A stretch of 8,282 nucleotides of DNA, taken from IMG/VR virus record IMGVR_UViG_2724678985_000018; one strand, given 5' to 3'. Within the stretch, counting starts at the first letter, position 1. Each line of letters begins with the position of its first letter. Of this stretch, positions 1 through 8,188 are shown piece by piece. This stretch comes from a virus. Taxonomy: Duplodnaviria; Heunggongvirae; Uroviricota; Caudoviricetes. The notes under the pieces are model-generated. The model was not told the origin of the DNA. It did not search any database and worked only from the letters and a program-made list of their open reading frames with translations. A program made the position numbers and the translations under genes.

Positions 1-26
1 GTAAGCGTAAACTGACCGCCGTATGT
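1..26. repeat. IS66 left terminal inverted repeat (IRL)
   Basis: GTAAGCG terminus, the conserved IS66-family end. Pairs imperfectly with the reverse complement of 2505-2532. Exact inner boundary is uncertain. Confidence 0.8.
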
Positions 27-85
27 AGCCATCAGACGAGAATTGGTAACTTAGACGCCCATCTGATATAGACGGACATCTAAGT

Positions 86-511
86 ATGGAATTACAGGAC
101 TGGCGAAAAGAACCTCGTAAAAACTATTCGAATGAATTCAAACTTCGTATGGTGGAACTGGCATCACAACCTGGAGCTTGTGTTGCACAGATTGCACGTG
201 AAAATGGCGTCAATGATAATGTTATTTTCAAATGGCTCAGGCTCTGGCAGAACGAAGGGCGTGTTTCGCGGCGTCTTCCGGTAACGACCTCTTCTGACAC
301 TGGCGTTGAATTATTACCTGTAGAAATAACGCCGGATGAGCAGAAAGAACCTGTGGCGGCCATTGCGCCGTCTTTATCCACTTCCACTCAGACCAGAGTC
401 AGTGCCAGTTCCTGCAAGGTGGAATTCCGTCACGGTAACATGACGCTGGAAAATCCATCGCCAGAGCTGCTCACGGTGTTGATCCGTGAACTGACCGGGA
501 GGGGAAGATGA
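86..511 (+). CDS. tnpA: IS66-family accessory protein OrfA (helix-turn-helix)
   Basis: 141 aa. N-terminal NYSNEFKLRMVELASQPGACVAQIARENGVNDNVIFKWL is the typical IS66 Orf1 helix-turn-helix segment. Stop overlaps the orfB start (ATGA). Confidence 0.85.
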   Translation: MELQDWRKEPRKNYSNEFKLRMVELASQPGACVAQIARENGVNDNVIFKWLRLWQNEGRVSRRLPVTTSSDTGVELLPVEITPDEQKEPVAAIAPSLSTSTQTRVSASSCKVEFRHGNMTLENPSPELLTVLIRELTGRGR

Positions 512-858
512 TCTCACTCCCATCAGGTACCCGTATCTGGCTCGTTGCCGGCGTTACCGATATGCGTAAATCCTTCAACGGACTGGGAGAACAGGTACAA
601 CATGTGCTGAATGATAATCCCTTCTCCGGTCACCTGTTTATCTTCCGTGGCCGACGGGGTGACACCGTCAAAATTCTTTGGGCTGATGCTGATGGTCTGT
701 GCCTGTTCACCAAACGCCTGGAGGAAGGCCAGTTTATCTGGCCTGCGGTACGTGACGGCAAGGTATCCATTACCCGCTCGCAACTGGCAATGCTCCTCGA
801 TAAGCTGGACTGGCGTCAGCCAAAAACATCCAGCCGTAACTCACTGACAATGTTGTAA
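508..858 (+). CDS. tnpB: IS66-family accessory protein OrfB (TnpB of IS66; unrelated to the IS200/IS605 RNA-guided TnpB)
   Basis: 116 aa starting MISLPSGTRIWLVAGVTDMRKSFNGLGEQV...HLFIFRGRRGDTVKILWADADGLCLFTKRLEEGQFIWP, the highly conserved IS66 Orf2 signature. Start is coupled to the orfA stop. Confidence 0.92.
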   Translation: MISLPSGTRIWLVAGVTDMRKSFNGLGEQVQHVLNDNPFSGHLFIFRGRRGDTVKILWADADGLCLFTKRLEEGQFIWPAVRDGKVSITRSQLAMLLDKLDWRQPKTSSRNSLTML

Positions 859-888
859 AAAACTCCTGACCGCATTATAAAAACGGTC

Positions 889-2502
889 ATGAGTCAGAAA
901 TACCTCATTCGCATCGCAGAGCTGGAAAGGTTGCTCTCTGAGCAGGCTGAAGCCCTCCGTCAGAAAGACCAGCAACTGAGTCTGGTTGAAGAGACGGAAG
1001 CCTTCCTGCGCTCTGCACTGACACGTGCCGAAGAAAAGATCGAAGAAGATGAACGGGAAATAGAACATCTGCGGGCTCAGATAGAAAAACTGCGCCGGAT
1101 GCTGTTCGGTACCCGTTCTGAAAAACTGCGTCGTGAAGTTGAACTGGCTGAGGCTCTGCTGAAACAACGTGAACAGGACAGCGATCGTTACAGTGGGCGG
1201 GAAGACGATCCTCAGGTTCCCCGCCAGTTGCGACAGTCGCGCCATCGTCGTCCGTTACCGGCACACCTTCCCCGTGAAATACACCGCCTGGAGCCAGAAG
1301 AAAGCTGTTGCCCGGAGTGTGGCGGTGAGCTGGATTATCTGGGAGAAGTCAGCGCTGAACAGCTGGAACTGGTGAGCAGTGCCCTGAAAGTGATCCGCAC
1401 AGAACGGGTAAAAAAAGCCTGTACAAAATGTGACTGTATTGTTGAAGCACCGGCGCCGTCCCGCCCGATAGAGCGTGGTATCGCGGGCCCCGGATTACTT
1501 GCCCGCGTGTTAACGGGAAAATACTGCGAACATCTGCCACTGTATCGTCAGAGTGAAATCTTTGCCCGCCAGGGTGTCGAACTGAGCCGGGCCTTACTCT
1601 CCAACTGGGTTGACGCGTGCTGCCAGTTAATGACACCGGTGAATGATGCCCTGTACCGTTATGTGATGAATACCCGCAAGCTTCACACTGACGACACACC
1701 GGTAAAGGTACTGGCACCGGGCCTGAAAAAGACGAAAACAGGGCGCATCTGGACGTATGTCCGGGATGATCGCAATGCGGGTTCGTCATCTCCTCCGGCG
1801 GTCTGGTTCGCGTACTCATCGAACCGGCAGGGGAAACACCCGGAGCAACACCTCCGCCCCTTCCGGGGTATCCTGCAGGCGGATGCGTTCACAGGTTATG
1901 ACAGGCTGTTCAGTGCAGAACGTGAAGGTAGTGCGCTGACAGAAGTTGCGTGCTGGGCTCATGCCCGGAGAAAAATCCACGATGTATACATCAGCAGCAA
2001 AAGTGCGACGGCAGAAGAAGCCCTGAAGCGAATCAGTGAACTGTACGCCATCGAGGATGAAATACGGGGATTACCAGAATCAGAGCGTCTTGCAGCCAGG
2101 CAGCAGCGAAGCAAAGCGTTACTGACGTCGCTGCATGAATGGATGGTGGAGAAGAATGGCACGCTGTCGAAAAAATCCAGACTGGGCGAAGCGTTCAGCT
2201 ATGTACTGAATCAGTGGGACGCCCTCTGTTATTACAGTGATGACGGTCTGGCGGAGGTGGACAATAACACAGCGGAAAGAGCGCTTCGTGCAGTCTGTCT
2301 CGGAAAGAAAAATTACGTGTTCTTCGGTAGCGATCACGGCGGCGAGCGTGGAGCACTGCTGTACGGGCTGAGCGGCACCTGCCGTCTGAACGGTATCGAT
2401 CCGGAAGCGTATCTGCGCCATATTCTGAGCGTACTGCCGGAATGGCCCTCCAACCGTGTTGACGAACTCCTGCCATGGAACGTAGTACTCACCAATAAAT
2501 AA
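889..2502 (+). CDS. tnpC: IS66-family transposase (TnpC; DDE type with N-terminal coiled coil and zinc-finger-like CxxC...CxxC)
   Basis: 537 aa. N-terminal heptad-rich region (LERLLSEQAEALRQKDQQL...IEHLRAQIEKLRRMLFG), then CPECGGEL...CTKCDC, then a large catalytic region. Size and architecture match IS66 transposases. Confidence 0.92.
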   Translation: MSQKYLIRIAELERLLSEQAEALRQKDQQLSLVEETEAFLRSALTRAEEKIEEDEREIEHLRAQIEKLRRMLFGTRSEKLRREVELAEALLKQREQDSDRYSGREDDPQVPRQLRQSRHRRPLPAHLPREIHRLEPEESCCPECGGELDYLGEVSAEQLELVSSALKVIRTERVKKACTKCDCIVEAPAPSRPIERGIAGPGLLARVLTGKYCEHLPLYRQSEIFARQGVELSRALLSNWVDACCQLMTPVNDALYRYVMNTRKLHTDDTPVKVLAPGLKKTKTGRIWTYVRDDRNAGSSSPPAVWFAYSSNRQGKHPEQHLRPFRGILQADAFTGYDRLFSAEREGSALTEVACWAHARRKIHDVYISSKSATAEEALKRISELYAIEDEIRGLPESERLAARQQRSKALLTSLHEWMVEKNGTLSKKSRLGEAFSYVLNQWDALCYYSDDGLAEVDNNTAERALRAVCLGKKNYVFFGSDHGGERGALLYGLSGTCRLNGIDPEAYLRHILSVLPEWPSNRVDELLPWNVVLTNK

Positions 2503-2504
2503 GC

Positions 2505-2532
2505 GTCAATACGGTGCTCCGTTGACGCTTAC
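2505..2532. repeat. IS66 right terminal inverted repeat (IRR), with an internal 9-bp hairpin
   Basis: Ends ...CGCTTAC at 2532, the reverse complement of the left-end GTAAGCG. AAGCGTCAA (2501-2509) and TTGACGCTT (2522-2530) are reverse complements of each other. Confidence 0.8.
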
Positions 2533-2670
2533 AAACATCGTGACGTTCCTTTGGGTGGGTGAGCCAACGCCCGGGAGCGATCTGCCCACAGAGAAAGTCA
2601 CACTGACCACTCCGTAAGCTCACCCCCGAAAGGCTCTGTGGTTGATATGCGCCGGGCGTGGCGCAGATAC

Positions 2671-2694
2671 AAAAAAGGCCCGCCGAAGCGAGCC
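2671..2694 (-). terminator. Rho-independent terminator downstream of the tRNA cluster
   Basis: Minus strand reads GGCTCGC-TTCG-GCGGGCC followed by TTTTTT. 7-bp GC-rich stem with one mismatch, tetraloop, U-tract. Lies 13 nt past the 3' end of the last tRNA. Confidence 0.6.
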
Positions 2695-2707
2695 TGGAAA
2701 ATAAGTG

Positions 2708-2784
2708 TGGCGCGTTGTAGTGGAGTCTAACCACTGACCGATTGCTTAGAAGGCAATTGCTCTGTCCGACTGAGCTAACAACGC
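2708..2784 (-). tRNA. tRNA-Arg (anticodon TCT)
   Basis: Manual cloverleaf from the reverse complement: GCGTTGT-TA-GCTC-AGTCGGACA-GAGC-A-ATTGC-CTTCTAA-GCAAT-CGGTC-AGTGG-TTAGACT-CCACT-ACAACGC-G-CCA. All four stems pair perfectly, CCA is encoded. The T-loop TTAGACT is non-canonical. Confidence 0.75.
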
Positions 2785-2797
2785 ATGATGCTGATAA

Positions 2798-2874
2798 TGG
2801 ACCGCCATCGGGGACTTGAACCCCGCGCAGCCAGCTTCGAAGGCTGGCGCTCTGTCCCGATGAGCTAATAGCGG
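2798..2874 (-). tRNA. tRNA-Arg (anticodon TCG), atypical acceptor end
   Basis: Manual cloverleaf: CCGCTAT-TA-GCTC-ATCGGGACA-GAGC-G-CCAGC-CTTCGAA-GCTGG-CTGCG-CGGGG-TTCAAGT-CCCCG-ATGGCGG-T-CCA. Canonical T-loop and perfect D, anticodon and T stems. Acceptor stem starts C1-G72 with a T at the discriminator position, both unusual. Confidence 0.6.
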
Positions 2875-2883
2875 TATGTAATA

Positions 2884-2959
2884 TGGTGGCCCTTGCTGGA
2901 TTTGAACCAGCGACCTGGCGATTATGAGTCGCTCGCTCTCACCACTGAGCTAAAGGACC
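2884..2959 (-). tRNA. tRNA with CAT anticodon, most likely tRNA-Ile2 (lysidine type) rather than Met
   Basis: Manual cloverleaf: GGTCCTT-TA-GCTC-AGTGGTGA-GAGC-G-AGCGA-CTCATAA-TCGCC-AGGTC-GCTGG-TTCAAAT-CCAGC-AAGGGCC-A-CCA. Closely resembles the E. coli ileX/ileY tRNA as I recall it, differing in acceptor and anticodon stems. One A-C mismatch at the base of the anticodon stem. Confidence 0.75.
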
Positions 2960-2987
2960 GAGCCAAAAAATAATAATCAGATGAAAA

Positions 2988-3701
2988 TCAATAATCAAGC
3001 CCTTGCCTGGATACATATCTGTCTGGCGGGAAGCCATAATAGCGGTGAAATACAGAAATAAAGTAGGACCTGCTTGAATAACCGCATTTTTCTGCTATAG
3101 CCTGTCCATATCCATGCCGGGAACATAACATATTTACAGCAACACGCATCCGCTCTTCCAGCAACAAGCGACTGAACATGCCCCCTTCATTTTTCAGTTT
3201 TGTCTTTAACAAACTCTCACTCATATGCAACTGTAGAGCAATCGCACCAAGCGTCCAGCTTGCTGATATATCTGTCTGAATTATCGCCCTGACTTTGGCA
3301 CTTATGCTGGATAAACATCCACTTAAAAACAATGACATCCGTTCATCTGTTTCAAACAGAGACAGGCAGGCCATCATAAGAAACATATCCGTGACCTCTC
3401 CGGAAAATCCCTGGCTGGTAATTAAAGCCGCAGCCAACGCAGGATTGTTGGGTTCCAGCAACAGGTAAAGCGGAATGTCAGTCAGACGAGTCCTCGTCAG
3501 CTTATGCTGACTTTCCAGATATTGACTTACGACGGATTCGCTTATATCGACAATTTTAACTTTGCCATAATGCATAAGGAAAAGCTCCCTGATGCATTTG
3601 GTGGCCAGAACGACTGAGCCTGGCTTAAGTGACAACGTATCCTTTTCAAGAAAAATATTAATTGGGGAGCAAACCATGATAACTGAACAGACAACAGCCA
3701 T
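2988..3701 (-). CDS. AraC/XylS-family transcriptional regulator (C-terminal double helix-turn-helix, N-terminal domain without a recognisable cupin)
   Basis: 237 aa. C-terminal WTLGAIALQLHMSESLLKTKLKNEGGMFSRLLLEERMRVAVNMLCSRHGYGQAIAEKCGYSSRSYFISVFHRYYGFPPDRY is a textbook AraC helix-turn-helix domain. Locus is visibly AT-rich compared with its flanks. True start may be the second Met (ATG at 3677). Confidence 0.8.
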   Translation of the reverse strand: MAVVCSVIMVCSPINIFLEKDTLSLKPGSVVLATKCIRELFLMHYGKVKIVDISESVVSQYLESQHKLTRTRLTDIPLYLLLEPNNPALAAALITSQGFSGEVTDMFLMMACLSLFETDERMSLFLSGCLSSISAKVRAIIQTDISASWTLGAIALQLHMSESLLKTKLKNEGGMFSRLLLEERMRVAVNMLCSRHGYGQAIAEKCGYSSRSYFISVFHRYYGFPPDRYVSRQGLDY

Positions 3702-3736
3702 TATAATTTTACTTTCATTAGCAATTGGTTAGCTCA

Positions 3737-3767
3737 ATTATAGCCCCAAAAGGTAAATTATCATCAA
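3737..3767 (-). promoter_or_regulatory. Candidate sigma70 promoter for the AraC-family gene
   Basis: Minus strand TTGATG (-35), 19-bp spacer, TATAAT (-10), about 35 nt upstream of the ATG at 3701. Spacer is longer than optimal. Confidence 0.3.
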
Positions 3768-3821
3768 CACATAAGCAAAGGACTGACAGGTGTCGCCCCC
3801 CCACCAGCCGCCCATTCACCA

Positions 3822-3849
3822 CAAATAAAAAGCCTTCAGGACTGAAGGC
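3822..3849 (-). terminator. Rho-independent terminator overlapping the 3' end of the 65-aa ORF
   Basis: Minus strand GCCTTCA-GTCC-TGAAGGC (perfect 7-bp stem) followed by TTTTTATTTG. The TGA stop of the upstream ORF lies inside the hairpin. Confidence 0.6.
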
Positions 3850-4033
3850 GTCTGTAACAACCGCACTGATAGTCTGCCAGACCCGCCATAACAAGCTGGG
3901 TCAGTATTAACTGGCAGCGTTCGCGTGAAAGGTAAGTATTCTGCGCAATCTCCCCGACTGTCGCCGGTTCGGTAACGCTTAATTCATTAAACACCACTCT
4001 GGCGGTTTCTGTCATATCCTGCTGTTTTAGCAT
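3836..4033 (-). CDS. Small hypothetical protein (65 aa), possible small DNA-binding protein
   Basis: MLKQQDMTETARVVFNELSVTEPATVGEIAQNTYLSRERCQLILTQLVMAGLADYQCGCYRRLQS. Co-directional with phage genes, followed immediately by a terminator. A weak AGGGAA lies about 9 nt upstream of the ATG. The ELSVTEPATVGEIAQ...LSRERCQLIL stretch suggests a helix-turn-helix or winged helix but I could not place it in a family. Confidence 0.45.
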   Translation of the reverse strand: MLKQQDMTETARVVFNELSVTEPATVGEIAQNTYLSRERCQLILTQLVMAGLADYQCGCYRRLQS

Positions 4034-4155
4034 GTCTTTTTTCCCTTTTGGTTAACGTGACATACCAATAACTCTTGTCCAAAAAGCCAGCAAGCAGAAA
4101 GACCGGTATTCGCAACCACCAGCGCATTTAACGCCCCGTGCCGTTTTTCAGTCAT

Positions 4156-4177
4156 AAAAAAACCCGCAAAAAGCGGG
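4156..4177 (-). terminator. Rho-independent terminator about 80 nt downstream of the Q-like gene (tR'-like position)
   Basis: Minus strand CCCGC-TTTTT-GCGGG followed by TTTTTTT (the + strand shows a 7-A run at 4156-4162). Sits between the Q-like gene and the downstream cargo, where lambdoid phages place the terminator that Q-modified polymerase reads through. Confidence 0.6.
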
Positions 4178-4256
4178 CTCTTTCAAATGTCCATGTCTGC
4201 TATTCGCCTCGCGGTACAGCTTTGCGAAGCGTACCGGAATTGAAGCAGTTTTTACG

Positions 4257-4823
4257 TCAAAAAGCAATAACTTTTTTATCTATACCAAAAGCCATAACCA
4301 TTGGTTTGTACAAAATAAATTCTGCCACCTTTAGCCAATGCTCAATGCGTCTTTCACAGGTTCTTAAACTCCATTCCGGATGTGCATCATTCAGCAGTTC
4401 AGCCATTTTGCGCTTAGTCATCCCCCGCCCCACATAACGCTGACTCAGAACATTGAGCAGCCCGGGATAACCTGCCAGTACTTCACCAATAACCCTGTCG
4501 ATTATTAACGCCTCTGAATCGGTACAATGTGCCAGCCAGCTTTTTTGATTGCCGTTGATCATATCCCGCAAAAAAGCCTCAAGTTCAGGTTTGTCCAGAC
4601 CCGCTTTTTTCATCCTCCGGAGCGCCTCGTTAATTGCCGTTTTTGTCAGCTTTTTAGAGGTCAGTAATTGGTTGAACATATTTCCCGTCTTACCGTCGCC
4701 AATATACGACCAACGCCCCCACATACGCAGTTTCCCCTGGATCCAGACACTTTCCAGCGTTTTCAGGCGTAAATGCTCACCGCTTTTGCCTGTAATTTCC
4801 GGGTATATCATATTTATGCTCAC
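4257..4823 (-). CDS. Putative late-gene antitermination protein (Q-like)
   Basis: 188 aa. Directly downstream of rusA with a 4-nt GTGA start/stop overlap, followed by an intrinsic terminator and then tRNAs and cargo. The segment LRMWGRWSYIGDGKTGNMFNQLLTSKKLTK resembles the WGAW...F.GL.TSK N-terminal segment I recall from phage 82/DLP12-type Q proteins. Annotated start is GTG at 4823; an alternative ATG is at 4811. Call rests mainly on synteny. Confidence 0.5.
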   Translation of the reverse strand: MSINMIYPEITGKSGEHLRLKTLESVWIQGKLRMWGRWSYIGDGKTGNMFNQLLTSKKLTKTAINEALRRMKKAGLDKPELEAFLRDMINGNQKSWLAHCTDSEALIIDRVIGEVLAGYPGLLNVLSQRYVGRGMTKRKMAELLNDAHPEWSLRTCERRIEHWLKVAEFILYKPMVMAFGIDKKVIAF

Positions 4824-5179
4824 TCACTTTCAATTTTGTAAATCTTCACGCCCAGCCGCCCACCAGAAACGAGCTGGCCGCGCACAATATTGATTTCATC
4901 AAACTGCTCGTCGTCTATGAGAAGTCCGGCATGCGTCAGCGCATCCAGTGGTGCTTTCAGGATATTGTCCAGGTCACGACGGCGCTTATCCGGTGGCTCT
5001 GCAATAATCTTTATCGCCAGCCTTCCGGACAGGTTTAATTTCAGCCGCTGCTGGCGAACAATAAGTGCCACATCCCGGCGATAACGCTCACCGGCTTTTG
5101 ATACAAAATATGTGCTGCCACGACGTCGCCAGTAGGTGTTCACCGTCGGCGGGTAAGGCAAAACAAACTCTATACGCAT
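4820..5179 (-). CDS. rusA: Holliday-junction resolvase RusA (crossover junction endodeoxyribonuclease)
   Basis: 119 aa with LPYPPTVNTYW...YRRDVA...PPDKRRRDLDNILKAPLDALTHAGLLIDDEQ...GGRLGVKI, matching the RusA pattern including the catalytic D-rich motifs. AAGAGG ribosome-binding site 7 nt upstream of the ATG. Confidence 0.88.
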   Translation of the reverse strand: MRIEFVLPYPPTVNTYWRRRGSTYFVSKAGERYRRDVALIVRQQRLKLNLSGRLAIKIIAEPPDKRRRDLDNILKAPLDALTHAGLLIDDEQFDEINIVRGQLVSGGRLGVKIYKIESE

Positions 5180-5191
5180 CAGTAACCTCTT

Positions 5192-6295
5192 TTACCCGAG
5201 CACGCCGGTTGCAAAGGCGTGATCAAGAAAACGAAAAATTAAATCAACCTGGGAACCATGCTTTTCTTCGAACGCCAGCGGATCCGCATGAAGCTCGTTG
5301 TGATGCTCCCGACACAGCGGTAGCGTGAAAATATCGTGGGATTTTGTTCCCATTCCGCCCTGACCATGACCAATCAGATGATGAGGATCGTCCGCTGGCT
5401 TACCACAACACGCACACGGCTGTGTCTTTACCCAGCGTGTGTATTTCTCATTTACCCAGCGGCGACGTTTAGGTCGTTTCATGAAGGATTCCGGAGACTC
5501 CGGATCAACGGCAATGCTGACCACCGTCTTTTCCTGTGGTGGGTTCTGTTGCTGGTGGGTGTGAGGCGGTAGCGCAATATTTTTTGTGCGCTGCTTCAGT
5601 ATGCTGGTGGCGGTCTGTTCTCCCGGTATGATGTCGCTTTCACGGTATACGGAGCGGATTTTTTCCGCCGGTAATCCCAGAGAGCGACGCGATACTGCCT
5701 CAGGTAATGCGTCCACCACCTGATTGCAGACTGCCCACCAGGATAATTCAGCCAGCGATAATTCCCGCTCCTGCGTGCCATTCATTACATGGCGTATGAC
5801 GTCAATCATCCAGGCTGTCAGATTTTGTTGAGTAAGTTGCTCAAGTGATTCGGAGGTCTGGTCGCGCAGCTGGTTGTCGCAGTGCCAGCACAACACCATT
5901 GCGCCAGCACCGTAACTGTGAATAACGGTTTCGCTGTGATGATAATCGCCGTGTGGCCACTGGCAGGATTTCACGTGACGTAATAACCAGTCAGACAGTG
6001 CACCAGCGCCGCCAGCTGCACGAATCACCCGCTCATCGCTGAAAAATGGCAGCAGTGATTTATCTTCCGCCAGCGGCTGGCGAACAGCAGGAACCGCTCC
6101 AGATGGCAGCGCCCGCATGTTTTTCGGTTCCGGCTCCACCAGCACCCTGCCGCGATGAAAAACTGGCAATGATTCACGACCGGGCTTAAGGACCACCAGC
6201 CCGAGTTCCGGAACCAGAACAGGTCGAAGTAATACCCGCACATTACCTCCAGACGCGCTGACGGTAGCAGGCATGTGTCCGTGGCAGATGTGCAC
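5192..6295 (-). CDS. DUF968-family phage protein with C-terminal HNH-like motif (YdfU-like)
   Basis: 367 aa from a GTG start. C-terminus CACCGKPADDPHHLIGHGQGGMGTKSHDIFTLPLCREHHNELHADPLAFEEKHGSQ is the Cys/His-rich signature I associate with Qin-prophage YdfU-type proteins. No Shine-Dalgarno before either the GTG (6295) or the first ATG (6274). The 5' end overlaps the preceding 90-aa ORF. Confidence 0.7.
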   Translation of the reverse strand: MHICHGHMPATVSASGGNVRVLLRPVLVPELGLVVLKPGRESLPVFHRGRVLVEPEPKNMRALPSGAVPAVRQPLAEDKSLLPFFSDERVIRAAGGAGALSDWLLRHVKSCQWPHGDYHHSETVIHSYGAGAMVLCWHCDNQLRDQTSESLEQLTQQNLTAWMIDVIRHVMNGTQERELSLAELSWWAVCNQVVDALPEAVSRRSLGLPAEKIRSVYRESDIIPGEQTATSILKQRTKNIALPPHTHQQQNPPQEKTVVSIAVDPESPESFMKRPKRRRWVNEKYTRWVKTQPCACCGKPADDPHHLIGHGQGGMGTKSHDIFTLPLCREHHNELHADPLAFEEKHGSQVDLIFRFLDHAFATGVLG

Positions 6296-6636: not shown

Positions 6637-6981
6637 TTACTTTAATAATTTCAGTGCCTTTACATCAACTTCAACACTGCTCAGGTCTTTATCAATTTCA
6701 CCCTCAATTCTTACTTTGTCTTTCGGAGAAACATTCTGCCCGGCCCATACGCTGTCATCAATATCCGTGACAATTGTCCCGCTATTGTCACGAAACTCAT
6801 AACGTTCATCACCCACTTTTTTAACGATGCTCCCTTCAAGGATAACCCATGCATCATCCTTCAGTTCTTTTGCCTGCGCTACTGTTGAACGCTCTGCTTC
6901 TGGCCCCTGGAAACCACCCTGCTGTGCAAAAGCGCCAAAAGACACACCGGAAATAAGTGCTGCAATCAATACCTTTTTCAT
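6637..6981 (-). CDS. YgiW/YdeI-family (BOF, DUF388) periplasmic OB-fold protein with signal peptide
   Basis: 114 aa. N-terminal MKKVLIAALISGVSFGAFA looks like a signal peptide. The mature region (QQGGFQGP...DDAWVILEGSIVKKVGDERYEFRDNSGTIVTDIDDSVWAGQNVSPKDKVRIEGEIDKD...VEVDVK) follows the YgiW/YdeI pattern. AAAGAGGA ribosome-binding site upstream. Confidence 0.75.
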   Translation of the reverse strand: MKKVLIAALISGVSFGAFAQQGGFQGPEAERSTVAQAKELKDDAWVILEGSIVKKVGDERYEFRDNSGTIVTDIDDSVWAGQNVSPKDKVRIEGEIDKDLSSVEVDVKALKLLK

Positions 6982-7100: not shown

Positions 7101-7256
7101 TTACTTCTCAGATTCGTAGTCTACGAAGACAGCGACCTCCGTCTGACCGGTTCGGATTCGCACCTCGCAGAGGTCTTTCCTCGTTACCAGTGCCGTCACT
7201 ATGACGGTTAAACAGATGACGATCAGGGCGATTAACATCGCCTTTTGCTGCTTCAT
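7101..7256 (-). CDS. hok: Hok/Gef-family type I toxin (membrane peptide, 51 aa)
   Basis: MKQQKAMLIALIVICLTVIVTALVTRKDLCEVRIRTGQTEVAVFVDYESEK is near-identical to E. coli HokD/RelF-type sequences as I recall them. GGAG ribosome-binding site upstream. The six-frame track extends this frame to an upstream ATG at 7313 (70 aa), but the conserved Hok start is the internal Met. Confidence 0.9.
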   Translation of the reverse strand: MKQQKAMLIALIVICLTVIVTALVTRKDLCEVRIRTGQTEVAVFVDYESEK

Positions 7257-7440
7257 AGCCTGCTTCTCCTTGCCTTTCGGCACGTAAGAGGCTAACCTAC
7301 ATGTGTTCAGCATGGATTGAGCCTCAGATTAATGTTAAGCGTCTTGCAGGACGCGTAATGTTAACTGGGGCTTTTCTCTATCTGCCGTTGGTGTTCATGC
7401 CCGAGGCAGATAGCCTCAAGCACCCGCTGCAATTCTACTT
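7257..7440 (-). promoter_or_regulatory. hok mRNA leader (expected to contain the mok start region and the Sok antisense-RNA target; sok would be encoded on the + strand here)
   Basis: Minus strand contains GCTTGAGGCTATCTGCCTC and TAGCCTCTTACGTGCCGAAAGGCAAGGAGAAGCAGGCTATG, which resemble the 5' end and the region just upstream of the start codon of plasmid R1 hok mRNA as I recall them. Candidate -10 TAGAAT just upstream of the presumed 5' end. Exact sok coordinates not determined. Confidence 0.45.
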
Positions 7441-7546: not shown

Positions 7547-8188
7547 TCATTGATTCACCTCCTGCGGCGGTTCTGGTAGCGACATCCAGTGGGTTGCTTG
7601 CCTAAGATCATTACCCGGACTAACTGCTATACCTCCGCGCCGGAACGTGCCTCCGAGATAGCGTGCGGAATATATTAATGGCCCAGCCTCGCTATCGATA
7701 TTCATCGAAATAAGCACGTTCTGGCTCTTTTCAGGCATTCGCTCAGTACAGCTTATCCAGCCATCCAGAGTTATCGGAGATCTGGTTGACGTTTCCGAGA
7801 TTTCCCGAAAATTGTTGGTTGACGAATTCTTATTTTCCCGAAAGTTTCCGGCCTGAAGCATGGCGACGCGGCAGGCGTTCCAGCCATCAGCATATGTTTT
7901 AGTTACACCGTCGAGATGGCAGGTAAGCAAATCCATTTCATCAGGCACTACCATTGCTATCGGCTCTGCTTCCAGTGATGCCAGCGCGATACGAAACACA
8001 TTAGCCAGCAGGCTGTCTGAAGACTTGTTATCGTGCGCCGAGTCGCTCAGGAAGCCTGTGATGTATGATTTAATCTCCGCGCGTTCTCTGGTAATAGTGC
8101 TCATATCAGTTTGAACCGCCCAGGGTGTCCTGGAGAGTGTTTTATCTGTGAAATCAGGCTGCCAGATCATCGTTTCCGATGGAAGCAT
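7547..8188 (-). CDS. Phage protein with C-terminal DUF551-like domain
   Basis: 213 aa. C-terminus WISCTERMPEKSQNVLISMNIDSEAGPLIYSARYLGGTFRRGGIAVSPGNDLRQATHWMSLPEPP fits the DUF551 pattern (W...LP...HWM.LPEPP) as I recall it. Contains an internal repeat NFRENKNSSTNNFREISE. No clear Shine-Dalgarno before the first ATG; the start could be Met-7. Confidence 0.5.
   Translation of the reverse strand: MLPSETMIWQPDFTDKTLSRTPWAVQTDMSTITRERAEIKSYITGFLSDSAHDNKSSDSLLANVFRIALASLEAEPIAMVVPDEMDLLTCHLDGVTKTYADGWNACRVAMLQAGNFRENKNSSTNNFREISETSTRSPITLDGWISCTERMPEKSQNVLISMNIDSEAGPLIYSARYLGGTFRRGGIAVSPGNDLRQATHWMSLPEPPQEVNQ

What the first reader, a model, noticed from the sequence alone, without database searches (positions are those of the whole stretch)
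2988..4033. AT-rich regulator cargo (AraC-family gene plus small ORF) between the Q terminator and the phage tRNAs
A two-gene insert sits in the late-operon leader: a 65-aa ORF with its own terminator, then an AraC/XylS-family regulator with its own candidate promoter. The regulator has a canonical helix-turn-helix domain, an N-terminal domain I cannot classify, and visibly lower GC than neighbouring phage genes. Prophage-borne AraC-like regulators in pathogenic E. coli (Psr/PatE class) are known to rewire host acid-resistance and secretion regulons. This one would be expressed both from its own promoter in the lysogen and by Q-dependent readthrough on induction.
Basis: partly seen in the sequence, partly recalled or inferred. 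Interest (0 to 1): 0.6.

Follow-up and report, generated by a model that had tools for sequence, protein, structure and literature searches.

The report
Known prophage regulator PsrB, O111 copy
The AraC-type gene is the E. coli O111 copy of psrB, an already characterised prophage regulator that switches on host acid-resistance genes and dampens type III secretion; the small gene next to it is not part of the insert but an uncharacterised, widely conserved backbone gene of lambda-like prophages.

Summary
The window is a lambdoid prophage of E. coli O111:H- 11128 (100% identity). The 237-aa AraC-like protein (2988-3701, minus strand) is 235/237 identical to the protein of EDL933 O-island 57. Published z2104 (psrB) primers map exactly inside the gene, and z2100-z2102 primers map to the neighbouring genes at the published spacing. 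It is therefore the PsrB ortholog, a characterised activator of gadE/hdeA that indirectly represses LEE secretion. The gene occurs in 726 of 5426 complete E. coli genomes, usually twice.

Two points need correcting. First, this is not a two-gene insert. The 65-aa winged-helix ORF is in 2142 of 5426 genomes and in Salmonella, Klebsiella and Citrobacter prophages. There it always sits just after Q, followed by psrB, a DNA methyltransferase or nothing. Only about 815 bp (about 3790-2975: promoter-like site plus psrB) is swappable cargo. Second, "AT-rich" is weak: psrB is 43.8% GC, Q is 45.1% and the small ORF is 50.0%.

The terminators and the candidate promoter are confirmed as sequence features; expression routes remain inferred. 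Verdict: already known, low interest. The only open item is the uncharacterised small wHTH gene (phrog_331).

The parts
4257..4823 (-). Q-like late antiterminator gene (188 aa; DUF1133 / Phage_antitermQ; z2102 equivalent)
   Evidence: Pfam PF06576 E=3.7e-105 and PF06530 E=6e-8. phrog_753 'anti-termination protein Q-like' E=1.2e-80. The published z2102 primers map at 4519-4538 and 4621-4641.
4156..4180 (-). Intrinsic terminator downstream of Q (tR'-like): GAGCCCGC-TTTTT-GCGGG + T7
   Evidence: Fold -19.1 kcal/mol, z=-3.45, 0 of 200 shuffles as stable; coordinates. The consensus scan did not list it.
4034..4155 (-). Conserved leader upstream of the small ORF; part of the shared backbone module behind different Q types
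   Evidence: Homology with the Stx2k phage starts at 4130 and with the ST131 prophage at 4167; alignment.
3836..4033 (-). 65-aa stand-alone winged-helix protein gene (phrog_331, function unknown; z2103 by position). A backbone gene, not cargo.
   Evidence: phrog_331 E=2.1e-37. The Pfam TrmB hit is sub-threshold at 18.3 bits against a 25.6 cut-off. AF2 pLDDT 83.6 with H-H-H-wing topology. TM about 0.75 to wHTH domains. 78-100% identical homologs in several genera. Present in 2142 of 5426 E. coli genomes. Synonymous changes predominate.
3822..3849 (-). Terminator-like hairpin GCCTTCAGTCCTGAAGGC + TTTTTATTT overlapping the small ORF's stop codon
   Evidence: 7 pairs, 4 G-C. The stem GCCTTC/GAAGGC is invariant in six loci while the loop varies. 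The fold on its own is not exceptional (z=-1.35).
2975..3790 (-). psrB cargo cassette (about 815 bp): upstream spacer with the promoter-like site, the psrB CDS and about 13-20 bp of 3' sequence. It occupies a slot that holds other cargo in related prophages.
   Evidence: Junctions from multi-locus alignments. Backbone is shared down to about 3795-3790 and again from about 2975-2965; BLAST breakpoints. Alternative contents of the slot: an N6/N4 DNA methyltransferase or nothing.
3737..3764 (-). Candidate sigma-70 promoter of psrB: ATGATA-16 nt-TATAAT
   Evidence: 10 of 12 consensus matches. The -10 hexamer is invariant in four psr loci. Not statistically distinguished from chance on its own (3 sites found, 3.7 expected in shuffles).
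2988..3701 (-). psrB ortholog: 237-aa AraC/XylS-family regulator of the YdeO/GadX/PatE-like subgroup
   Evidence: 235/237 identical to EDL933_RS10010 in OI-57. z2104 primers map at 3284-3303 and 3422-3441, giving a 158-bp amplicon as published. Pfam HTH_AraC/HTH_18. Full-length YdeO-like alignment. DNA-binding domain closest to GadX 3mkl, E=7e-19.
2884..2959 (-). Phage tRNA with anticodon CAU. ARAGORN calls it tRNA-Met; RefSeq annotates it as tRNA-Ile (ileZ-type).
2798..2874 (-). Phage tRNA-Arg (UCG)
2708..2784 (-). Phage tRNA-Arg (UCU)
2676..2695 (-). Terminator-like hairpin after the tRNA cluster (AGGCTCGC-TTCG-GCGGGCCT + T6)
   Evidence: 8 pairs, 6 G-C; fold z=-2.48.
1..2532 (+). IS66-family element (tnpA, tnpB and the transposase) inserted between the tRNA cluster and the downstream TerB-like late-region gene. 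It is context, not part of the psrB module.
   Evidence: Pfam IS66 domains. RefSeq names it 'IS66-like element ISEc47 family transposase'. Terminal repeats GTAAGCG... and an 8-bp target duplication CGATGTTT, seen as AAACATCG at 2533-2540 on the + strand.

Best explanation
The AraC-type gene is the O111 ortholog of psrB (z2104). PsrB is a prophage-encoded regulator of the YdeO/GadX/PatE-like branch of the AraC/XylS family. According to published work on the EDL933 protein, which differs from this one at 2 of 237 residues, PsrB binds the gadE and hdeA promoter regions. It raises GadE and YhiF, and with them glutamate-dependent acid resistance. Through GadE/YhiF it indirectly lowers LEE type III secretion.

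Anatomically, psrB is a single-gene cargo cassette of about 815 bp that carries its own promoter-like element. The cassette sits in a swappable slot of the lambdoid late-operon leader. Upstream of the slot are the Q gene, the post-Q terminator, and a conserved 65-aa winged-helix gene with its terminator. Downstream is the ileZ-argN-argO-type tRNA cluster. The 65-aa gene belongs to the phage backbone, not to the cassette.

Shown here: identity, anatomy, slot structure and distribution. Taken from the literature: target genes and phenotypes. Inferred: psrB is transcribed from its own promoter in the lysogen, additionally by Q-modified polymerase after induction, and its transcript probably runs on into the tRNAs, because no convincing terminator separates them.
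For: Identity. The window is 100% identical to E. coli O111:H- 11128. The protein is 235/237 identical to EDL933_RS10010 in OI-57. Primers published for z2100, z2101, z2102 and z2104 all match exactly, in order, and the z2100-to-z2104 spacing of 2597 bp in EDL933 equals the published coordinates. z2104 = psrB according to two reviews.

Family. The protein is 37% identical over its full length to PatE/ECs_0287 (E=3e-54). It is 90.8% identical to the second O157 allele, matching the published 90% between PsrA and PsrB. The best NCBIfam hit is a full-length alignment to YdeO, followed by GadX. The DNA-binding domain is closest to the GadX structure 3mkl.

Function, from the literature. PsrB binds hdeA (-132 to -45) and gadE, enhances survival at pH 2.5-3.5 and passage through the mouse stomach, and PsrA/PsrB repress T3S through GadE and YhiF. 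The same prophage carries a PerC/Pch-family regulator, as reported for psr loci.

Cassette. psrB is in 726 genomes against 2142 for the small ORF. The slot holds alternative cargo or is empty elsewhere. The junctions are mapped.

Selection. The syn/nonsyn codon counts of 26/20 over 160/551 sites give dN/dS of about 0.2 against the Stx2k-phage allele.

Read-through inference. In the Stx2k phage genome phiSTEC1575 the same module lies between Q and stx2k. stx genes are co-transcribed with the late genes on induction (abstract of PMC8065619).
Against: No experiment was done on the O111 allele. Its two substitutions relative to EDL933 PsrB (H196Y and I203V in the EDL933 direction) lie in or next to the second HTH. 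Both window residues also occur in other family members.

The primary papers (Tree 2011, Yang 2015, Bender 2012) could not be read, so the functional statements rest on reviews.

The promoter is only a consensus match. PR' itself was not located. An IS66-family element interrupts the late region just downstream of the tRNAs, and nothing here shows that this prophage is still inducible. Q-dependent expression in this strain is therefore uncertain.
Confidence: 0.9

Rival explanations
1. The 65-aa wHTH gene and the AraC gene form one functional two-gene module, a regulator pair or operon acquired together.
For: They are adjacent and co-oriented in all four psr-bearing loci examined: O111, EDL933 OI-57, the Stx2k phage and O157 Z852. 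Both are predicted DNA-binding proteins.
Against: The small ORF occurs in 2142 genomes against 726 for psrB. It has the same position with a methyltransferase or nothing downstream in E. coli, Salmonella and Klebsiella. A conserved terminator hairpin and a promoter-like site separate the two genes. The homology breakpoint falls between them. In O157 Z852 the small ORF is frameshifted while the psr gene is intact. PatE has no such neighbour.
Confidence: 0.05
2. The regulator acts mainly on the phage itself rather than on a host regulon. It might, for example, tune late transcription, expression of the adjacent tRNAs, or expression of downstream toxin and effector genes.
For: It sits in the late leader immediately upstream of the tRNAs, and in phiSTEC1575-Stx2k directly upstream of stx2k. 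No convincing terminator separates it from the tRNAs. psr loci are linked to Pch/PerC regulators on the same prophages.
Against: Published data assign PsrA/PsrB direct host targets (gadE, hdeA) and host phenotypes. The closest chromosomal relatives, YdeO and GadX, are gadE regulators. Most lambdoid prophages with the same backbone lack psr altogether, so it is dispensable for phage functions.
Confidence: 0.04
3. The gene is an inert remnant in a decaying, IS-disrupted prophage, with no current function in O111.
For: An IS66-family element is inserted 143 bp downstream of the tRNA terminator. The locus holds frameshifted late genes. The tRNA-Arg(UCG) copy is degenerate in the EDL933 homolog.
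Against: The ORF is intact and identical in many O111 and related genomes; 590 records carry a copy at 99% identity or more. Divergence between alleles is biased towards synonymous changes. The near-identical EDL933 protein is active when expressed.
Confidence: 0.01

Closest known systems
PsrB (z2104, O-island 57 / CP-933O, E. coli O157:H7 EDL933)
   Same: 99.2% amino-acid identity (235/237). The gene order is the same: DUF551, hok, ygiW, DUF968, rusA, Q(DUF1133), 65-aa ORF, psrB, tRNAs, TerB, DUF3927, esterase, lysis genes, PerC. Several flanking proteins are identical.
   Different: Two conservative substitutions (H196 and I203 here, Y and V in EDL933). All three tRNAs are intact in O111, but only two are annotated in EDL933. 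An IS66-family element lies between the tRNAs and TerB in O111 only.
PsrA (z1789), taken here to be the second O157 allele WP_000261909.1
   Same: 90.8% identity and the same slot (small wHTH ORF, then psr, then tRNA-Ile/Arg/Arg) on a lambdoid prophage with a PerC/Pch gene.
   Different: It lies behind a different Q type, with an extra CPBP protease gene, and the small ORF is frameshifted in strain Z852. I could not confirm that this allele is z1789. The OI-50 prophage of resequenced EDL933 and Sakai Sp6 hold no psr gene.
PatE (z0321 / ECs_0287, prophage CP-933H / Sp1)
   Same: Full-length homolog at 37% identity (E=3e-54), covering both the N-terminal domain and the dual HTH. It is reported to activate the same acid-resistance genes through the same hdeA promoter region.
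   Different: It is a paralog, not an ortholog. It sits elsewhere in the prophage, near the invertase and tail-fibre remnant at the prophage end, with no 65-aa ORF or tRNAs nearby.
YdeO, GadX/GadW and AppY (AraC-type regulators of gadE in E. coli K-12)
   Same: The best NCBIfam alignment is full-length to YdeO, followed by GadX. The DNA-binding domain is closest to the GadX structure 3mkl. All converge on gadE and the AR2 system.
   Different: Scores are far below the equivalog cut-offs (108 vs 348 bits for YdeO, 87 vs 500 for GadX). These regulators are chromosomal, or DLP12-borne for AppY, and respond to other inputs.
Rns / CsvR / ToxT (virulence AraC regulators with fatty-acid-binding N-terminal domains)
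   Same: Sequence hits cover the linker plus the DNA-binding domain (E about 5e-16). They are the top full-length Foldseek matches.
   Different: The structural support is weak: model pLDDT 62.9, TM about 0.28, rmsd 16-18 Å. No evidence for a ligand pocket was obtained.
Phage 'morons' (Hendrix-type extra genes in lambdoid late regions, such as lambda bor/lom, or stx in Stx phages)
   Same: It is a presence/absence insert between conserved flanks in related prophages. It has its own promoter-like element, a host-directed function and a somewhat lower GC.
   Different: No convincing terminator of its own lies between psrB and the tRNAs. The GC deviation is modest and shared by the neighbouring Q gene.

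Membership tests
Psr (PsrA/PsrB prophage-encoded secretion regulators) | Sequence identity with the z2104 (PsrB) gene product of EDL933 OI-57 | tested here: met
   235/237 identical to EDL933_RS10010. The z2104 primers match exactly with the published 158-bp amplicon, and the z2100-z2102 primers match the neighbouring genes at the published spacing.
Psr (PsrA/PsrB prophage-encoded secretion regulators) | Encoded on a lambdoid prophage that also carries a Pch/PerC-family regulator and effector loci | tested here: met
   The gene sits in lambdoid prophage context, and a PerC-family gene lies in the same prophage. The same holds in EDL933 OI-57 and O157 Z852. Linkage to effector genes was not examined in O111.
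Psr (PsrA/PsrB prophage-encoded secretion regulators) | Activates gadE/yhiF/hdeA and thereby represses LEE type III secretion and raises acid resistance | not testable with these tools
   Known only from the literature on the EDL933 proteins. It needs genetics or biochemistry in O111.
AraC/XylS family | C-terminal region of about 100 aa with two helix-turn-helix motifs | tested here: met
   PF00165 at 50.3 bits (cut-off 26.6) in two stretches, and PF12833 at 39.8 bits (cut-off 33.6) over residues 155-230. Aligns with the GadX DNA-binding-domain structure 3mkl, E=7e-19.
PatE (z0321) ortholog | High identity to ECs_0287/z0321 and location in CP-933H/Sp1 | tested here: not met
   Only 37% identity and a different prophage position. 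It is a paralog within the same subfamily.
YdeO (NCBIfam NF007407 equivalog) | Score at or above the curated cut-off of 348 bits | tested here: not met
   108 bits, although the alignment is full-length, 1-229 against 1-230 of 253. It is related but not an equivalog.
GadX (NCBIfam NF007432 equivalog) | Score at or above the curated cut-off of 500 bits | tested here: not met
   87.3 bits, covering the C-terminal half only.
Phage moron | Present or absent between conserved flanking sequences in related phages | tested here: met
   The same backbone carries psrB, an N6/N4 methyltransferase or nothing in the slot.
Phage moron | Own promoter, active in the lysogen | tested here: inconclusive
   A 10/12 consensus match at 3764-3737 lies inside the cassette and is conserved among psr loci. 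There are no transcript data, and the scan as a whole is not enriched over shuffles.
Phage moron | Own terminator downstream of the gene | tested here: not met
   The only candidate is a weak 5-bp hairpin at 3009-2996 without a proper T-run. tRNA-Ile starts 29 nt after the stop codon. The next good terminator is at 2695-2676, after the tRNAs.
Phage moron | Base composition distinct from neighbouring phage genes | tested here: inconclusive
   psrB is 43.8% GC against 50.3% for the rest of the phage part, but the adjacent Q gene is 45.1% and ygiW 43.8%.
TrmB family (PF01978), for the 65-aa ORF | Score at or above the Pfam gathering threshold (25.6 bits) | tested here: not met
   18.3 bits, E=0.002, and no NCBIfam hit. 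The fold is a generic winged helix, TM about 0.75 to Rrf2/IclR/MarR/DeoR-type DNA-binding domains with Foldseek E of 0.009 or worse. It is best filed as phrog_331, function unknown.

The most novel reading that the evidence does not exclude
The part that is not yet understood is the 65-aa stand-alone winged-helix protein (phrog_331), not psrB. It is the first gene after the Q-controlled terminator. Its recognition helix is invariant from Escherichia to Klebsiella and Buttiauxella. It is kept behind at least four unrelated Q types, and it marks the upstream edge of a cargo-swap slot (psrB, N6/N4 DNA methyltransferase, or empty). It could be an uncharacterised late-operon regulator. For example, it might control the cargo promoter next to it, much as a C-protein controls an adjacent methyltransferase. 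Alternatively it might modulate late transcription or lysis timing.
Probability: 0.15. Interest if true: 0.4.

Novelty: already known. Interest (0 to 1): 0.12.

Why it matters
PsrB-type regulators show how prophages rewire core host regulons, here acid resistance against type III secretion, in EHEC. This matters for gastric passage and ruminant colonisation. That is established biology for O157:H7.

Finding a 99%-identical copy in O111:H- only extends a known gene to another EHEC serogroup, as expected. The gene is in 13% of complete E. coli genomes.

The modest added value is anatomical. psrB is one of several alternative cargos in a defined slot behind a conserved small wHTH gene. In at least one Stx2k phage genome it lies on the Q-to-stx transcription path.

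Tried and rejected
1. Looking for PsrA (z1789) in OI-50. I fetched Sakai Sp6 and the resequenced EDL933 CP-933N. Neither holds an AraC-type gene (tblastn). The 171-aa hypothetical protein near the integrase is unrelated. A PsrA-like allele (90.8% identical) turned up in another O157 prophage. The OI-50 assignment in the literature could not be reconciled with the current assemblies.

2. Primary papers (Tree 2011, PMC7099609; Yang 2015, PMC4288888; Bender 2012, PMC3416394) and the old EDL933 record NC_002655.2 are not held. Naming was secured instead through the published z2104 primers.

3. Cluster look-ups gave no informative names, only 'helix-turn-helix domain-containing protein'.

4. Structure of the N-terminal domain. 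The AF2 model from an 11-sequence alignment was poor (pLDDT 62.9, pTM 0.40). Foldseek ranked full-length Rns, CsvR and ToxT first, but at TM about 0.28, so I make no claim about the fold or a ligand pocket. The sequence-level link to YdeO and PatE is firmer.

5. The 65-aa protein matched only generic wHTH domains, so no specific family could be assigned.

6. Rfam found no RNA family in the leader other than the tRNAs.

7. The consensus scan found no PR'-like promoter between Q and the terminator. PR' remains unlocated.

8. The idea of a strongly AT-rich foreign island was rejected on per-gene GC.
Full report
**1. What the window is.** The 8282-bp window is 100% identical to the chromosome of E. 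coli O111:H- strain 11128 and many related EHEC genomes. RefSeq annotation of that locus and my own ORF, Pfam and tRNA calls agree. The minus strand carries the early-right to late junction of a lambdoid prophage:
- DUF551 (7547-8188)
- hok/sok (7101-7425; Rfam sok at 113 bits)
- a YgiW/BOF stress protein (6637-6981)
- DUF968 (5192-6295)
- RusA (4820-5179)
- a Q-like antiterminator of the DUF1133/Phage_antitermQ type (4257-4823; phrog_753)
- the finding's two ORFs
- three tRNA genes (2708-2959)

The plus strand of window 1-2532 is an IS66-family element.

**2. Checking the observation.**
- A strong intrinsic terminator follows Q at 4180-4156 (-19.1 kcal/mol, z=-3.45).
- The 65-aa ORF (3836-4033) ends in a hairpin plus T-run at 3849-3832. 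The stem is invariant in six loci while the loop varies.
- A promoter-like site, ATGATA-16-TATAAT (10 of 12 matches), lies at 3764-3737, upstream of the AraC start codon at 3701. Its -10 hexamer is invariant in the four psr-bearing loci compared. The scan as a whole is not enriched over shuffled sequence, so this stays a candidate.
- The 237-aa ORF has AraC-type HTH domains above Pfam thresholds.

The compositional claim is weak. psrB is 43.8% GC and its upstream spacer 41.0%, against 50.3% for the rest of the phage part. But the neighbouring Q gene is 45.1%, ygiW is 43.8% and the small ORF is 50.0%.

**3. Identity of the regulator.** The resequenced EDL933 genome carries the same gene order in O-island 57 (CP-933O), and several proteins share WP accessions with the O111 locus. 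Its AraC-like protein EDL933_RS10010 is 235/237 identical to the window protein, and the small ORF is 64/65 identical.

The primary Psr papers are not held, so I tied the gene name to the sequence another way. A typing paper lists primers designed on EDL933 AE005174 for OI-57 ORFs (PMC4763077).
- The z2104 pair matches exactly inside the AraC gene in both the window (3284-3303 and 3422-3441) and EDL933, giving the published 158-bp amplicon.
- The z2100, z2101 and z2102 pairs hit DUF968, rusA and Q respectively.
- The z2100-to-z2104 distance in EDL933 (2597 bp) equals the published coordinates.

Two reviews state that z2104 is psrB. The window gene is therefore the O111 ortholog of psrB.

**4. 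The wider family.**
- The protein is 37% identical over its full length to PatE (ECs_0287/z0321; E=3e-54).
- It is 91.6% identical to a copy in the complete phage genome phiSTEC1575-Stx2k.
- It is 90.8% identical to a second O157 allele (strain Z852). That figure matches the published 90% identity between PsrA and PsrB.
- The family appears confined to E. coli and Shigella in a 5.8-billion-protein search.
- psrB-like DNA is in 726 of 5426 complete E. coli genomes, with a median of two copies per genome.
- Divergence between alleles favours synonymous change (26 synonymous and 20 non-synonymous codons over about 160 and 551 sites).

**5. The 'unclassifiable' N-terminal domain.** Pfam has no model for it. 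NCBIfam aligns the whole protein (residues 1-229) to YdeO (108 bits, below the 348-bit equivalog cut-off), with GadX next. PatE aligns from residue 1. PDB sequence search puts the DNA-binding domain closest to GadX (3mkl, E=7e-19), then Rns, CsvR and ToxT.

An AlphaFold model from the shallow family alignment was poor (pLDDT 62.9). Foldseek ranked full-length Rns, CsvR and ToxT first, but with TM about 0.28. I take this only as consistent with a two-domain regulator of that general class. It works like, and is related to, the chromosomal gadE activators YdeO and GadX, but it is not an equivalog of either.

**6. How it most likely works.** From the literature on the near-identical EDL933 protein (review PMC10877973):
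- PsrB binds the hdeA promoter region (-132 to -45) and the gadE promoter.
- It raises GadE and YhiF and so the AR2 acid-resistance system.
- It improves survival at pH 2.5-3.5 and during passage through the mouse stomach.
- PsrA and PsrB lower LEE type III secretion indirectly through GadE and YhiF.

The two residues that differ in O111 (H196 and I203) also occur in other family members, so I infer the same activity. That step is inference, not shown here.

**7. The main correction: it is not a two-gene insert.** The 65-aa ORF is in 2142 of 5426 complete genomes, about three times as many as psrB. Homologs 78-100% identical, with an invariant recognition helix, occur in Shigella, Salmonella, Klebsiella, Citrobacter, Buttiauxella and Scandinavium. 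The gene that follows it varies:

| Locus | Q type | After the small ORF |
|---|---|---|
| ST131 prophage | another Q type | DNA methyltransferase, then tRNAs |
| E. coli M16807 | DUF1133 | DUF3927 directly (slot empty) |
| Salmonella prophages | DUF1133 | N6/N4 methyltransferase, then lysis genes |
| Klebsiella prophages | Q21-type | N6/N4 methyltransferase or nothing, then lysis genes |

Base-level alignments place the shared backbone down to about 3795-3790 and again from about 2975-2965. The cargo is therefore about 815 bp: the promoter-like spacer plus psrB. It sits in a slot bounded by the small ORF's terminator and tRNA-Ile. The PsrA-type allele occupies the same slot behind yet another Q type, and there the small ORF is frameshifted.

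The small protein is a confident stand-alone winged helix (pLDDT 83.6) with only generic structural matches. It belongs to phrog_331, function unknown.

**8. Expression routes (inferred).** The cassette carries its own promoter-like element. Deletion phenotypes reported in uninduced O157 imply expression in the lysogen. No convincing terminator lies between psrB's stop codon and tRNA-Ile, 29 nt downstream. Transcripts may therefore continue through the tRNAs to the terminator at 2695-2676.

In phiSTEC1575-Stx2k the order is Q, small ORF, psr, tRNAs, stx2k. stx genes are co-transcribed with the late genes on induction (abstract of PMC8065619). Q-modified polymerase must therefore cross psr in that phage.

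In the O111 prophage, an IS66-family element with an 8-bp target duplication that includes the TerB start codon lies just beyond the tRNAs. Nothing here shows that this prophage is still inducible. PR' itself was not located.

**9. Verdict.** It is the already characterised psrB in an expected genomic setting, so the novelty rating is 'already known' and interest is low. The anatomical refinement (single-gene cargo in a swap slot, with the small wHTH gene as backbone) and the uncharacterised phrog_331 protein are the only points that go beyond the literature I could access.

Noticed in passing
window 1-2540 (and L001:6340-6440 for the left junction): A complete IS66-family element (RefSeq: ISEc47 family), with terminal repeats starting GTAAGCG, is inserted on the opposite strand. 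It lies between the tRNA terminator and the TerB-like gene. The 8-bp target duplication CGATGTTT contains the TerB ATG, so TerB keeps its ORF but loses its native ribosome-binding site and upstream sequence. The window begins exactly at the IS end. EDL933 OI-57 lacks this insertion.
   Followed up: partly
L003 (Sakai Sp6) and L005 (EDL933 CP-933N / OI-50): Reviews place psrA (z1789) on OI-50. However, neither Sakai Sp6 nor the resequenced EDL933 CP-933N contains any psr-like sequence (annotation and tblastn). In both, Q is followed directly by a TerB pseudogene. EDL933 nevertheless has two psr copies genome-wide. Either the original assembly placed z1789 in the wrong prophage, or the O-island numbering is used loosely.
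   Followed up: partly
L007:3850-4899; L010:3843-4895; L013:3844-4893: In E. coli ST131, Salmonella and Klebsiella prophages, the slot that holds psrB in EHEC holds an N6/N4 DNA methyltransferase of about 350 aa. It follows directly after the conserved 63-65-aa wHTH gene. This arrangement resembles a controller protein next to an orphan methyltransferase.
   Followed up: no
window 6637-6981 (-): A YgiW/BOF-family periplasmic stress-protein gene sits between hok and DUF968. It has the lowest GC3 in the window (37%; 43.8% GC overall) and may be another moron-like cargo gene. The identical protein (WP_000756596.1) is in EDL933 OI-57.
   Followed up: no
window 7101-7425 (-): A hok/mok/sok type I toxin-antitoxin locus: Pfam HOK_GEF E=1e-22, and Rfam sok at 113.5 bits over the full-length model.
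   Followed up: no
L006:31092-31191, compared with window 2798-2874: The middle tRNA (Arg-UCG) is intact in O111 and in the Stx2k phage but degenerate in EDL933 OI-57, where only tRNA-Ile and one tRNA-Arg are annotated.
   Followed up: no
window 2884-2959 (-): ARAGORN calls this tRNA Met (anticodon CAT), whereas RefSeq annotates it as tRNA-Ile, the ileZ-type lysidine-modified tRNA typical of Stx-phage tRNA clusters. The identity was not tested here.
   Followed up: no
window 3796-3803 (-) and alignment A4 columns 78-90: A G-run just before the left cassette junction varies in length and sequence between loci (GGGGG--GG, GGGGG-GGG, GGGTGTTAG). It may be a recombination or slippage hotspot at the edge of the slot.
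   Followed up: no
L009:6667-6863: In O157:H7 strain Z852 the small wHTH ORF upstream of the PsrA-type gene is annotated as frameshifted while the psr gene is intact. This is further evidence that the two genes do not depend on each other.
   Followed up: no
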